64,000 nucleotides of DNA, from the NCBI RefSeq assembly GCF_024502345.1, contig NZ_JALDNN010000001.1; one strand, given 5' to 3'. The position numbers were made by a program, and so were the translations under genes. Numbering within the stretch: the stretch's first letter is position 1; every line of letters begins with the position of its first letter. This document shows positions 7,627 to 52,389 of the stretch, piece by piece. This DNA comes from Escherichia coli. GTDB lineage: Bacteria; Pseudomonadota; Gammaproteobacteria; Enterobacterales; Enterobacteriaceae. Below the pieces are notes generated by a model. It searched no databases and had not been told where the DNA came from. It saw only the letters and a list, made by a program, of their open reading frames with translations.

Positions 7627-7829
7627 TGAACTCGTCTCCTTAATTTATTACTGAAAGGGCCGCTGTTTTGGTCAAAAAACTCTCTAACTATAGACCACCA
7701 GCCAGATCCCGCTTCGGAGACTATTCTGGAAACGGTGTTATGAAATACACGCAAAGCGGGACGTACAGGGGCTAAATCGGCTAAACTACAGTTTTTCTAA
7801 TTTTTAATATGCGTTTAGTGAAGCCAGTA

Positions 7830-8072
7830 ATGAAGAAACCGCTCCGCCAGCAAAACCGCCAGATTATTAGCTATATCCCACGCACGGAACCCGCGCCGCC
7901 AGAACATGCGATAAAGATGGATTCGTTTCGTGATGTCTGGATGCTGCGTGGCAAATATGTTGCGTTTGTACTGATGGGAGAGTCATTTCTGCGCTCACCG
8001 GCGTTTACTGTGCCTGAATCTGCCCAACGTTGGGCAAATCAGATCCGCCAGGAAGGGGAAGTGACTGAGTAA
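7830..8072 (+). CDS. cedA: Cell division modulator CedA
   Basis: 80-aa ORF from MKKPLRQQNRQIISYIP; ORF-track start 7809 is an N-terminal extension. Confidence 0.85.
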   Translation: MKKPLRQQNRQIISYIPRTEPAPPEHAIKMDSFRDVWMLRGKYVAFVLMGESFLRSPAFTVPESAQRWANQIRQEGEVTE

Positions 8073-8360
8073 GGATTACATACCTCCCGGTTTTGCCGGG
8101 AGTTACATGACCTGAAATTCTGCATTTCGTTGCTACATTCATTCAAACCACCTGTAACAAAAAGCTGCCTTTGACGAGCTATTGCTATAAATAAGTGATC
8201 TTTTTTCTTTAATTGTTCATTTATTTTAAAATGGTTAAGTTTTGCTAATCATGATGAGCTATTTTTGATAGTTCATCCTGTGGCGTCGCGCTTAAACTTA
8301 TATTGTAAGTGACTTAGATTTAAATGAGATAATAATTTTGTTAACAATATGAGGCGGGAG

Positions 8361-9165
8361 ATGTTTTCTACAAACTTAATACAGAGTAATTATGGTGATT
8401 TAAATATTAAAAGCCTGGCTTTCGAATCTTTTAAAGAAAGGCTTGAGTCTACCATGGCGGCACTCACTTTCTTTATATCAACGGGTCAATGTGACTGCGA
8501 TGAAATAGCAGAGTCGAACTTCAATCGTATGATTGCCTATATGTCTAACATTAACTATGATGCCTCAAAGCCAGGAGCGCCAGCACTTAGTTTTGATACG
8601 TATCTGCAGGACAATGTTAAATATAGAGTGATAATTAATAATCTTTATGGCAGTGAGTTTCGGATAAGAGATGTTAATGAGAATTTTGTTGGGATGGATT
8701 TTACCTGTGAATTCCGACCCGAAAAAATGACGAATTTGATCAATATAAAAAATAGGTTGGTTATTCATTATTTAAGGACTATATACTATGAAAAAAATTA
8801 TATACATCCTGCCGGGAGCATTTTTGCTGCGATTCAAAAAAAATGAGAGTCTCCTAAAGTTTCCTTCGATAATATCAATGCTTAATATCAATCTTCTTTT
8901 TAATCCACTAAATCTTCCGGGAATGGGAAGTGGTGTGCTTGAAGATATTATGAGTATTCCAGATAGTTCACTTAGAAAACGTCTCGGGTATGAGGTTTTA
9001 AGCTTCTCACTACAGGCACATTCATTGAGCCAGGAATGTATTGATAAGTTGGACATTTTTTTCGCTGACGATCTGTTTAAATATGAGTCAGTATGCATCG
9101 CCGCGATGGAACATTTAAAAAGTAAAGCAACGGCCCCTATACAAAACGGACCGTTGCCAGCATAA
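8361..9165 (+). pseudogene. ydjO: ydjO-like ORF split by a +1 frameshift (fragments 8361..8846 and 8788..9165)
   Basis: Two overlapping same-strand ORFs in frames 0 and +1; combined span 805 nt, one base more than a multiple of three; shift lies in 8788..8846, which contains A7 and A8 runs; low-GC locus. Confidence 0.6.
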
Positions 9166-9168
9166 GAA

Positions 9169-10560
9169 TTAACGGTGTGCCAGTTCGGCGTCGTCTTCGC
9201 TATCCAGAATGGCTTTATCGGTTTGCTTCAGCCACTGGCTGGTCAGCGTGCCAGCTGTCATCGAGCCACTAACGTTTAGCGCCGTACGGCCCATGTCGAT
9301 AAGCGGTTCAACGGAGATTAACAGCGCCACCAGGGTTACTGGCAGGCCCATCGCAGGCAGCACAATCAGTGCGGCGAAAGTTGCACCACCACCGACACCG
9401 GCAACGCCTGCGGAACTAACGGTAACAATACCGACCAGCGTCGCAATCCACATCGGGTCCAGCGGGTTAATGCCAACCGTAGGCGCAACCATCACCGCCA
9501 GCATTGCCGGATACAAACCGGCGCAGCCGTTCTGACCAATGGTCGCACCGAAAGAGGCGGCGAAACTGGCGATTGATTCAGGAACGCCCAGACGACGCGT
9601 TTGTGCTTCCACATTCAGTGGGATAGACGCAGCACTGGAACGGCTGGTAAAGGCAAACGTCAGCACAGGCCATACCTTACGGAAGTACTTCAGCGGACTC
9701 ACGCCATTAATGCCCAGCAGAATGCCATGCACTGCAAACATAATCAGCAGACCGAGGTAGGACGCGACAACGAAACTTCCCAGTTTGATGATGTCTTGCA
9801 GGTTAGAACCTGCAACCACTTTGGTCATTAGTGCCAGAACGCCGTAAGGGGTCAACTGCATGACCAGGCGAACTAGTTTCATCACCCAGCTTTGCAGGGT
9901 ATCGATAGCGGTTAAGACGCGTTCACCTTTCGGCGCATCATCCTTCAGCAGTTTCAGCGCAGCTACACCGAGGAATGCGGCAAAAATTACCACGCTGATA
10001 ATTGACGTCGGATTGGCTCCGGTCAGATCGGCAAACGGGTTTTTCGGGATAAAGGACAAGACCAGCTGCGGAACGCTCAGGTCAGAGACTTTACCAACAT
10101 AGTTACTTTCGATGGCGTTCAGACGTGCAGTTTCTGCACCACCCTGAACCAGACCTTCAGCCGTCAAACCAAACAGGTTGGTGACCAGCACACCGACCAG
10201 CGCCGCAATCAGCGTGGTAAACAAAAGCGTACCGATGGTCAGAAAACTGATTTTGCCTAACTGAGATGCGTTATGCAGACGGGCAACCGCGCTCAGAATA
10301 GAGGCGAAGACTAACGGCATAACGATCATTTGCAGCAGTTGAACATAGCCGTTACCAACGATGTTAAACCACTGTACAGAATCTTTAAGTACCTGGCTGT
10401 CAGAACCATAAATGGTATGCAGGGCAAGGCCAAAAACCACACCCATCACCAGACCCACCAGCACGTTTTTCGCCAGACTCCACTGTTTATGGCGGGTCTG
10501 AGCCAGCGCAAACAGCAGTACAACGAACACCACGATGTTCGCAATTAATGGAAAGTTCAT
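9169..10560 (-). CDS. tcyP: L-cystine transporter (sodium:dicarboxylate symporter family)
   Basis: 463-aa multi-pass membrane ORF; matches YdjN/TcyP. Confidence 0.93.
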
Positions 10561-41845: not shown

Positions 41846-42160
41846 GATTTCTCCTGTGAGTCGCATACGGAACCATCTCCGATGGAAGGTAAAAATGGCC
41901 TGAAAATAGTGTGCGATAGCGGTGCGGGGTTTTCGACGGAGCAAGCTGTTTTCCTTGCCAACAATCTTGCAAAAAAAATGCGATCGCTAAAACAAAAGTG
42001 CAATTTGCGGCAATATAGTTATTCCATGACCGTACAATCTTGCATTCAGTGTAAATAATCTTGTTTAGCTCTCGCTAAACGCGGTTGTATAACCGCAATA
42101 CACGCCGTATTTTATCCGGCATATATTGTTTTTGCTTGCTCATGGAATAGGGAGGTTGTC

Positions 42161-50985: not shown

Positions 50986-51091
50986 AAAAAAAAGCCCATC
51001 GTGGGAGATGGGCAAAGACTACACACAGCAATTCGTTGTTTCACTCAGGGGATTTCCATGCTTATAAATCAATATGTTGATTTATAACCGT
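50986..51091 (-). ncRNA. rprA: Small regulatory RNA RprA (Hfq-dependent activator of rpoS translation)
   Basis: Minus strand reads ACGGTTATAAATCAACATATTGATTTATAAGCATGGAAATCCCCTGAGTGAAACAACGAATTGCTGTGTGTAGTCTTTGCCCATCTCCCACGATGGGC followed by a T-run; between ydiL and ydiK. Confidence 0.9.
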
Positions 51092-51276: not shown

Positions 51277-52389
51277 TTACTTATTCGGTTTCTCGATTTC
51301 GCCCAGTTCTTCGAGAATTTCTTCCGGTTGGTCCGTCGGCGGCGGGACTTCTTCCACCCACGCGGCAAACAGACGCCAGGAAACGGCTAACAGAACCGGA
51401 CCAATAAACAGACCGATCATCCCGAAAGCAATCAAACCACCAATAACACCAGAGAGGATCAGGATCAGCGGTAAATCGGCACCCATGCGAATTAACATTG
51501 GGCGGATGACGTTATCCAGCGTGCCAACCACACCGCTCCACACTAACAATACCGTTCCCCAGGTGGTATCGCCAGTCCAGTAGAGCCAGATAATCGCCGG
51601 AATCAGTACCGGCAACGGGCCAAGCTGGACAAGGCAGGAGAGGATCATTAACACCGTTAGCAACGTTGCATAAGGTACGCCGGATACGGCGAGGCCGATA
51701 CCGCCAAGCACTGCCTGTACTAACGCCGTCACCACCACACCCAGCGCCACCGCGCGGATAGCCTGTGCCGCCAGCAGCACGGCGGCATCTCCGCGAACGC
51801 CTGCCAGACGGGTTGCAAAATGGCGAATGCCTTGTGCCACCTGTTCACCGCGCCAGTACAGCAGGGCACTGAAGAGAAGCATCAGCGCACAATGCACCAT
51901 AAAGCGCCCGATATGCGCCGCTTGCCCAACGAACCAGGTGGTGGTGGTGCCAATATAAGGGCGGACTTTCGCCATGATCGCCGTCCCCCCCATATCCAGC
52001 AAGTTGTGCCAGCCTGCATACAGCTTCGCGCCAATCACCGGAATGGTATTAAGCCACGCCAGATCGGGTAACGTCATGTCACCGCTGGAAATGGCTTTAA
52101 TTAGCGGGCCGCTGCCGTCGACGATACTGTTAACCAGCAAAGCAATAGGGATGATAAACACCATCACTAATAACAGCGTCATCACCAGAACGGCGAGAGA
52201 GCGGCGGCCAAACATGATCTTTTGCAAACGTAACAATACCGGCCAGGTGGCGATAACCACCGTACCGGCCCATGCAAAGCCGAGAATAAAGGGTTGAACA
52301 ATCCACAGACATGCCACAATCATGATGGCTAAAAACAGCACCGAAAGCAGAATTTGTGCGACATCCCTGGGCTGACGAACATTTACCAT
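51277..52389 (-). CDS. ydiK: AI-2E/PerM-family inner membrane transporter
   Basis: 370-aa multi-pass ORF. Confidence 0.9.
   Translation of the reverse strand: MVNVRQPRDVAQILLSVLFLAIMIVACLWIVQPFILGFAWAGTVVIATWPVLLRLQKIMFGRRSLAVLVMTLLLVMVFIIPIALLVNSIVDGSGPLIKAISSGDMTLPDLAWLNTIPVIGAKLYAGWHNLLDMGGTAIMAKVRPYIGTTTTWFVGQAAHIGRFMVHCALMLLFSALLYWRGEQVAQGIRHFATRLAGVRGDAAVLLAAQAIRAVALGVVVTALVQAVLGGIGLAVSGVPYATLLTVLMILSCLVQLGPLPVLIPAIIWLYWTGDTTWGTVLLVWSGVVGTLDNVIRPMLIRMGADLPLILILSGVIGGLIAFGMIGLFIGPVLLAVSWRLFAAWVEEVPPPTDQPEEILEELGEIEKPNK

What the first reader, a model, noticed from the sequence alone, without database searches (positions are those of the whole stretch)
8788..8846. ydjO reading frame broken by a +1 shift inside a poly-A-rich stretch
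Two overlapping plus-strand ORFs (8349..8846 frame 0; 8788..9165 frame +1) together span 8361..9165 = 805 nt, one base more than the 804 nt expected for a 267-aa protein (the K-12 YdjO length as I recall it). The overlap contains A7 (8791..8797) and A8 (8836..8843) runs, typical slippage or homopolymer-error sites. This is either a real phase-variable or inactivating indel in an H-NS-type AT-rich gene, or a sequencing artefact.
Basis: partly seen in the sequence, partly recalled or inferred. Interest (0 to 1): 0.45.

Follow-up and report, generated by a model that had tools for sequence, protein, structure and literature searches.

The report
Frameshifted ydjO pseudogene (A7→A8)
An E. coli-only gene of unknown function (ydjO) is broken here by one extra A in a run of As; this common, inherited, already-annotated pseudogene allele is ordinary.

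Summary
Plus-strand ORFs 8349..8846 and 8788..9165 are the two halves of ydjO, which lies between cedA and tcyP/ydjN. Against intact K-12 ydjO (804 nt, 267 aa) the window has exactly one extra base, in the run at 8836-8843 (A8 versus A7). This puts TGA (8844-8846) in frame. The other run (8791-8797) differs from K-12 only by a substitution and is not the shift site.

It is not an assembly artefact. The same 78-nt A8 segment is exact in 643 of 5,426 complete E. coli genomes (A7 in 2,709, A9 in 137). The window's exact allele recurs on at least 10 independent metagenome or read-archive contigs. RefSeq (PGAP) already labels identical alleles "frameshifted" pseudogenes.

Intact alleles evolve under purifying selection (dN/dS 0.12-0.18), and an intact allele four bases from the repaired window sequence exists. 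The A8 is therefore a derived loss-of-function mutation, most simply from replication slippage. Many A8/A9 alleles carry further lesions, and ydjO is also lost through IS insertion, other frameshifts or complete absence.

No recoding signals were found, and published E. coli RNA polymerase data show no deletion-slippage rescue on the A runs tested (up to eight As). Verdict: ordinary, known, low interest.

The parts
8361..9165 (+). ydjO pseudogene (805 nt; the intact orthologue is 804 nt / 267 codons)
   Evidence: Synteny cedA-ydjO-tcyP and 95-99.9% nucleotide identity to annotated ydjO. PGAP annotates the co-linear 805-nt feature in AREA_C483 and O121 RM8352 as 'frameshifted'.
8836..8843 (+). 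A8 homopolymer, the site of the +1 A insertion (A7 in intact alleles)
   Evidence: Alignment A1; run lengths in 21 sampled alleles; census A7 2,709 / A8 643 / A9 137 genomes.
8844..8846 (+). Premature TGA stop brought into frame by the extra A; ends the N-terminal product after ...AAIQKK
8361..8846 (+). N-terminal fragment ORF (161 aa from the annotated start; the mechanical ORF begins at ATG 8349)
   Evidence: This exact 161-aa sequence is present in public collections on at least 10 contigs.
8788..9165 (+). C-terminal fragment ORF (125 aa). Its first 18 codons (8788-8841) are out-of-frame sequence; from 8842 (AAT = Asn161 of YdjO) it is the native YdjO frame to the native stop
   Evidence: The identical 125-aa ORF is seen on at least 1,000 contigs.
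8791..8797 (+). A7 run inside the overlap; not the shift site (K-12 has AACAAAA, a substitution only)
8073..9168 (.). AT-rich ydjO segment (G+C 30-42% in 300-nt windows) between cedA and tcyP, present in some genomes and absent in others
   Evidence: Composition. In AVS0536 cedA and tcyP lie 46 nt apart with no ydjO, and about 1,160 genomes match only the tcyP end of the query.

Best explanation
This is a non-functional (pseudogene) allele of ydjO, an E. coli/Shigella-restricted accessory gene of unknown function. One extra A was added to the A7 run (now A8, 8836-8843). The most likely cause is strand slippage during DNA replication in an ancestor of this lineage. Translation from ATG 8361 now reads CAA AAA AAA TGA and stops at 8844-8846, giving a 161-aa N-terminal fragment that lacks the last 107 residues. 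The allele is inherited, widespread in B1-type lineages, and one of many independent ways in which ydjO has been lost in the species. Shown here: the indel position, the premature stop, the population frequency, the independent recurrence of the exact allele, purifying selection on intact alleles, and further decay on A8/A9 alleles. Inferred: replication slippage as the cause, and that the truncated product is inactive.
For: One-base insertion in the A run relative to intact K-12 ydjO. An intact allele differs from the repaired window sequence at only 4 bases (strain 190, WP_001384536.1; also O20:H12). dN/dS between intact haplotypes is 0.12-0.18, so the intact gene is a real coding gene. The A8 78-mer is exact in 643 complete genomes, A7 in 2,709 and A9 in 137. 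PGAP marks the same allele 'frameshifted'. The exact window allele (with its private 8426 A, Glu22) plus the 125-aa ORF occurs on at least 10 independent ENA/Logan/JGI contigs, and all six fetched have A8, including 99.985% identity over 6.5 kb. Secondary lesions on A8/A9 alleles include CGA-to-TGA at 8715, A6-to-A5 at 8747-8752 and an extra A near 8861. Other routes of loss are a T7-to-T6 frameshift in O157:H7, IS1/IS5 insertions and complete absence (IS interruption in O104:H4, PMC3486847).
Against: No expression or protein data exist for this allele. The window allele carries only this single lesion, so low-level rescue or reversion cannot be formally excluded. Raw reads of this assembly were not available. 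YdjO has no known function, so 'loss of function' cannot be tied to a phenotype.
Confidence: 0.9

Rival explanations
1. Sequencing or assembly artefact: the true sequence is A7 and the extra A is a homopolymer miscall.
For: Homopolymers are typical error sites for some platforms, and raw reads could not be inspected.
Against: The A8 allele is exact in 643 complete genomes from many laboratories and platforms. The nearest haplotype (AREA_C483, 1 SNP in 805 nt) has A8. The window's exact N-terminal ORF, with its private Glu22 variant, is followed by the 125-aa ORF on at least 10 independent contigs, and all six fetched have A8.
Confidence: 0.03
2. Phase-variable contingency locus: the A tract switches ydjO on and off reversibly (A7 on; A8 and A9 off).
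For: Tract length is polymorphic in the species (A7/A8/A9). All four combinations of CGA/TGA at 8715 with A7/A8 exist (strain 190, window, AQ15/ECC-1470, L3_CS7). This needs either recurrent tract mutation or recombination.
Against: Many 'off' alleles carry additional irreversible lesions such as a nonsense codon and second indels, which is not expected if switching back were selected. Whole serogroup lineages sampled (O111, O121) uniformly carry A8. An A8 tract is short for high-rate switching in a mismatch-repair-proficient E. coli (general knowledge, not tested here). The four-gamete pattern is equally explained by recombination in this visibly mosaic gene.
Confidence: 0.05
3. Recoding: full-length YdjO is still made from the A8 allele, either by RNA polymerase slippage (deleting one A in the mRNA) or by +1/-2 ribosomal frameshifting on AAA AAA before the TGA.
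For: Frameshifted genes with A/T runs can be rescued at the mRNA level in bacteria (PMC1088944). The stop codon lies immediately after the slippery run.
Against: Selection against runs, taken as the sign of slippage, appears at about 9 nt in many bacterial genomes (PMC1088944). With E. coli RNA polymerase, no rescue by deletion was detected on any poly(A) run examined, in a series where no activity was seen below eight As (PMC6260861, section 19). There is no Shine-Dalgarno-like stimulator just upstream of the run. The 87 nt downstream fold worse than shuffled sequence (z = +2.1). No Rfam element is present. The site is not conserved, since 71% of alleles holding the segment are in-frame A7. 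A8 alleles accumulate further stops.
Confidence: 0.03

Closest known systems
ydjO (b1730) of E. coli K-12, uncharacterised protein YdjO, 267 aa (WP_001310874.1)
   Same: Same locus (katE-cedA-ydjO-tcyP-ydjM). It is 95.2% identical over 901 nt and collinear from start to stop.
   Different: The window has A8 instead of A7 at 8836-8843, which causes a premature TGA. A divergent haplotype block lies at about 8441-8780.
RefSeq/PGAP 'frameshifted' ydjO pseudogenes, e.g. QEO87_RS10845 (strain AREA_C483) and I3S_RS24810 (O121 RM8352)
   Same: The same 805-nt feature with the same A8 tract and no other lesion. AREA_C483 differs from the window by one base (8426).
   Different: Essentially nothing: the window has a private A at 8426 (Asp22Glu).
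Homopolymer-frameshift pseudogenes that are candidates for rescue by transcriptional slippage (Baranov et al. 2005, PMC1088944)
   Same: A disrupted ORF whose two halves overlap at an A run, with an intact single-ORF orthologue in another E. coli strain.
   Different: The run is A8, not 9 or more. Rescue here needs deletion of an A, which E. coli RNA polymerase did not detectably do on the poly(A) runs tested (PMC6260861). No conservation of the split arrangement is maintained by selection.
Simple-sequence contingency (phase-variable) loci
   Same: A homopolymeric tract within the coding sequence, with length polymorphism (A7/A8/A9) in the population.
   Different: The tract is short, the alleles are stably inherited, and the 'off' alleles carry irreversible secondary lesions. 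No within-clone switching has been shown.

Membership tests
ydjO orthologue (E. coli K-12 b1730) | Position between cedA and tcyP (ydjN), same orientation | tested here: met
   cedA 7809..8072 (+), ydjO 8361..9165 (+), tcyP 9169..10560 (-).
ydjO orthologue (E. coli K-12 b1730) | Full-length collinear nucleotide similarity to annotated ydjO | tested here: met
   95.2% identity to K-12 and 99.9% to AREA_C483 over 901 nt.
ydjO orthologue (E. coli K-12 b1730) | Uninterrupted 267-codon reading frame | tested here: not met
   805 nt, with the frame broken at 8836-8846. It is therefore filed as a pseudogene allele of ydjO.
Frameshift pseudogene (PGAP sense) | An intact orthologue exists, and the query differs by an indel that is not a multiple of 3 and leads to a premature stop | tested here: met
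   a single +1 A. Deleting one A restores a 267-aa protein 94-99% identical to intact YdjO proteins.
Frameshift pseudogene (PGAP sense) | The lesion is real (reproducible in independent sequences) | tested here: met
   643 complete genomes; at least 10 independent contigs with the exact allele.
Frameshift pseudogene (PGAP sense) | Signs of relaxed constraint after the lesion | tested here: inconclusive
   In related A8/A9 alleles further stops and indels accumulate. In the window allele itself there are only 3 nonsynonymous and 1 synonymous changes versus the nearest intact allele, too few to test.
Phase-variable contingency locus | Tract-length variation among otherwise near-identical (clonal) genomes, reversible | not tested
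   Only species-level polymorphism was measured. Within-clone switching needs per-genome phylogeny or deep reads.
Phase-variable contingency locus | 'Off' alleles remain otherwise intact, so they can switch back | tested here: not met
   Ten of the 14 sampled A8/A9 alleles other than the window also carry TGA at 8715 and/or additional indels.
Programmed ribosomal frameshift (prfB-type +1) | Frameshift site conserved across orthologues | tested here: not met
   71% of alleles holding the segment are in-frame A7.
Programmed ribosomal frameshift (prfB-type +1) | Stimulatory elements (an SD-like sequence a few nt upstream, or a downstream structure) | tested here: not met
   No GGAGG-like motif lies within about 15 nt upstream of the run. 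The downstream 87 nt fold at -7.2 kcal/mol against a shuffle mean of -12.7. No Rfam hit.
Transcriptional-slippage-expressed gene | A/T run long enough for productive slippage by the host polymerase (about 9 or more in many bacteria) | tested here: not met
   The run is A8. Threshold from PMC1088944. For E. coli RNA polymerase, no deletion rescue was seen on the poly(A) runs tested (PMC6260861).
Transcriptional-slippage-expressed gene | Heterogeneous A-run length in the mRNA and full-length protein | not testable with these tools
   Needs RNA sequencing or a Western blot.

The most novel reading that the evidence does not exclude
The A tract of ydjO (A7/A8/A9 across E. coli) could act as a slow on/off switch for an orphan, lineage-restricted gene. 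Alternatively, the A8 allele could still yield useful products: a 161-aa N-terminal fragment, and a 125-aa C-terminal protein started at ATG 8788, which has an AAGGA motif 10 nt upstream. The C-terminal protein would carry the only confidently modelled part of YdjO (residues 192-257). Either way the 'pseudogene' would be a functional split or switchable gene.
Probability: 0.04. Interest if true: 0.3.

Novelty: already known. Interest (0 to 1): 0.07.

Why it matters
It matters little beyond annotation hygiene. The two ORFs should be annotated as one frameshifted ydjO pseudogene, not as two hypothetical proteins, which is how they appear in several public collections. There are two small practical points. 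First, ydjO has been proposed as a 'conserved signature' qPCR marker for E. coli/Shigella (PMC11057252). The census here shows the gene is absent or mostly missing in roughly a fifth of complete genomes and broken in many others. Frameshifts do not affect a DNA-based assay, but absence does. Second, the locus is a clear example of repeated, independent decay of an AT-rich orphan gene through homopolymer indels, a nonsense mutation, IS insertions and deletion.

Tried and rejected
1. Function of YdjO. There was no significant hit in Pfam, NCBIfam, PADLOC, PHROGs or PDB sequences.

2. Remote homologues. An exhaustive HMMER scan of 1.84 billion representatives returned only YdjO fragments plus two doubtful hits. 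P0044 looks like an A-to-G-converted copy of YdjO. P0062 is a 6,478-aa repetitive adhesin-like protein with eight weak stretches. No true remote homologues were found.

3. Structure. The AlphaFold2 model built on a 13-sequence alignment was poor (mean pLDDT 43; only residues 192-257 reach 60-83). No fold search was run because matches to such a model would be meaningless.

4. Recoding signals. The promoter/terminator scan was no better than shuffled sequence. There is no downstream RNA structure and no Rfam family.

5. Exact repaired haplotype. I searched for the 180-nt window sequence with A7 restored. No 100% match exists in complete genomes (best 99.4%), but intact alleles one to four bases away do exist.

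6. Source strain. The best match to a complete E. coli genome is only 99.2% over 25 kb, so the isolate itself is not in that collection. Near-identical contigs were found in read-archive assemblies instead.

7. Census limits. Tract-length counts come from an exact-match trick with 77-79-nt queries. About 303 genomes that hold the segment but have another SNP within it are unclassified.

Full report
**1. Observation**

The window holds two overlapping plus-strand ORFs, 8349..8846 (165 aa) and 8788..9165 (125 aa). The second is in the +1 frame relative to the first. An A7 run lies at 8791-8797 and an A8 run at 8836-8843, followed at once by TGA at 8844-8846. The neighbours are cedA (7809..8072, +) and a 463-aa minus-strand ORF (9169..10560) that RefSeq names tcyP (older name ydjN). 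In K-12 this interval holds ydjO, annotated as 804 nt / 267 aa (WP_001310874.1).

**2. Where the extra base is**

I aligned window 8330-9180 with K-12 and three close relatives (alignment A1). The window has exactly one length difference from K-12, in the 8836-8843 run (A8 versus A7). The 8791-8797 run is AACAAAA in K-12, so that difference is a substitution and has nothing to do with the frame.

In the upstream frame the window reads ATT CAA AAA AAA TGA (…I Q K K stop). K-12 reads ATT CAA AAA AAT GAG (…I Q K N E…). Deleting one A restores a 267-aa protein that is 94-99% identical to intact YdjO proteins.

**3. Real or artefact**

I used short queries for which only an exact match reaches 99% identity.

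| Allele of the 77-79-nt segment around the run | Complete genomes with an exact match (of 5,426) |
|---|---|
| A7 | 2,709 |
| A8 | 643 |
| A9 | 137 |
| Segment present, other SNP within it | about 303 |

In total 3,792 genomes hold the segment.

- RefSeq's PGAP pipeline annotates the collinear A8 feature as a pseudogene, "frameshifted". Examples are AREA_C483 (which differs from the window's 805 nt at a single base), O121 RM8352, O111 strains and E2865.
- The window's exact 161-aa N-terminal product, including its private Glu22 (A at 8426), is in public collections. It occurs on at least 10 contigs from ENA, Logan and JGI assemblies.
- All six contigs I fetched have A8 and the same two-ORF layout. 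One is 99.985% identical to the window over 6.5 kb.

An assembly-specific homopolymer error is therefore very unlikely.

**4. Is ydjO a real gene, and is A8 derived?**

- ydjO is AT-rich: 36% G+C against 49% for the whole window.
- Intact haplotypes (K-12, I2, O1:H42 CLSC36, strain 190) differ with dN/dS of 0.12-0.18. When intact, the gene is protein-coding and under purifying selection.
- An intact A7 allele (strain 190, WP_001384536.1) differs from the repaired window sequence at only four bases. A second intact allele is in an O20:H12 strain.
- A8 is therefore a derived insertion on a haplotype whose intact form still circulates. The simplest cause is replication slippage in the A7 run. This step is inferred.

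**5. What happened afterwards, and elsewhere**

Sampled A8 and A9 alleles often carry further lesions:

- CGA-to-TGA at 8715.
- A6-to-A5 at 8747-8752.
- An extra A near 8861.
- All three sequenced A9 alleles also have the TGA.

Other lineages lost the gene in other ways:

- O157:H7 lacks one T of the T7 run at 9056-9062.
- IS1 and IS5 insertions interrupt the gene. O104:H4 isolates are IS-interrupted (PMC3486847).
- About 1,160 genomes match only the tcyP end of the query. In strain AVS0536, cedA and tcyP sit 46 nt apart with no ydjO at all.

The window allele, with A8 as its only lesion, is an early stage of a decay that is common in the species.

**6. Rival readings**

*Phase variation.* The tract is polymorphic (A7/A8/A9). 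All four combinations of CGA/TGA at 8715 with A7/A8 occur, which requires either recurrent tract mutation or recombination. The gene is visibly mosaic: K-12-to-window divergence is packed into about 8441-8780. Irreversible secondary lesions on 'off' alleles, and the uniform A8 in the O111 and O121 strains sampled, argue against selected switching.

*Recoding.*
- There is no SD-like stimulator near the run.
- The downstream 87 nt fold worse than shuffled sequence (z = +2.1).
- There is no Rfam element.
- The site is not conserved, since in-frame A7 predominates.
- Rescue here would need RNA polymerase to drop one A. Published reporter data for E. coli RNA polymerase found no rescue by deletion on any poly(A) run examined, and no detectable slippage activity on runs shorter than eight As (PMC6260861, section 19).
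- Genome-wide, selection against runs is evident at about nine A/T in many bacteria (PMC1088944).

**7. What YdjO is**

- No Pfam, NCBIfam, PADLOC, PHROG or PDB-sequence match was found.
- An exhaustive scan of 1.84 billion representative proteins found only YdjO fragments and two doubtful hits. Many fragments begin MKKIIYILPG…, which is the ORF2-type product of frameshifted alleles.
- This agrees with a report that YdjO is confined to E. coli/Shigella and uncharacterised (PMC11057252).
- The AlphaFold2 model was poor (mean pLDDT 43). Only residues 192-257 are modelled with some confidence, and they lie downstream of the frameshift.
- The function lost cannot be named.

**8. Verdict**

This is a genuine, inherited +1 frameshift (A7 to A8) that makes ydjO a pseudogene. 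It is common (12% of complete E. coli genomes) and already annotated as such in RefSeq. Interest is low and the novelty class is "already known". The only non-excluded unusual readings are slow tract-based switching or functional split products. I put these at about 4% probability with modest interest if true.

Noticed in passing
window 8073-9168 (compare L028 2461-2508): The whole AT-rich ydjO segment is present in some genomes and absent in others. In strain AVS0536 cedA and tcyP are 46 nt apart, and about 1,160 of 5,426 complete genomes match only the last 33-39 nt of the 8300-9200 query. Whether absence is ancestral or a deletion was not resolved.
   Followed up: partly
window 9056-9062 (T7 run); L015: O157:H7 ATCC 35150 carries an independent -1 frameshift of ydjO in this T7 run (T6) and is annotated 'frameshifted'. 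This is a second homopolymer hot spot in the same gene.
   Followed up: partly
window 8715; 8747-8752; about 8861: Related B1-type alleles carry extra lesions that the window lacks: CGA-to-TGA at 8715, A6-to-A5 at 8747-8752 (FDAARGOS_1059, JNE181771), and an extra A near 8861 (a mussel ExPEC isolate). The TGA occurs with both A7 and A8, which implies recombination or recurrent tract mutation.
   Followed up: partly
window 8441-8780: Divergence from K-12 ydjO is concentrated in this block, while the flanks are nearly identical. Strain I2 has the window-like 5' part and a K-12-like middle. This indicates a mosaic, recombining gene.
   Followed up: no
protein P0044: A 299-aa database protein aligns to YdjO over its full length at 27% identity, but with N/K/I systematically replaced by G/R/V, as if the DNA had undergone A-to-G conversion. 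It is probably a read-chemistry or hypermutation artefact in a public assembly, not a homologue.
   Followed up: no
protein P0062: A 6,478-aa repetitive, adhesin-like protein gives eight weak matches to YdjO residues 75-170 (summed E = 1.6e-11, 23% identity). This is possibly spurious accumulation over repeats and was not examined further.
   Followed up: no
window 1-25000: The best identity to any of 5,426 complete E. coli genomes is only 99.2% over 25 kb. The closest genomes are B1-type, many bovine or STEC-like, and carry the T3SS effector gene espL1 in this stretch. The source isolate is not in that collection, but a Logan contig (ERR14375843) is 99.985% identical over 6.5 kb around ydjO.
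   Followed up: partly
window 41971-41978, 50986-50993, 63583-63590; 51985-51991: The other three A8 runs in the window fall outside all ORFs of 150 aa or more, so they appear intergenic. A C7 run lies inside the intact minus-strand ORF 51277..52389. The ydjO tract is the only A8 within coding sequence here.
   Followed up: partly
window 8773-8790: An AAGGA motif lies 10 nt upstream of ATG 8788, the start of the 125-aa ORF. This could allow independent translation of the C-terminal part of YdjO. No evidence was sought beyond the sequence.
   Followed up: no
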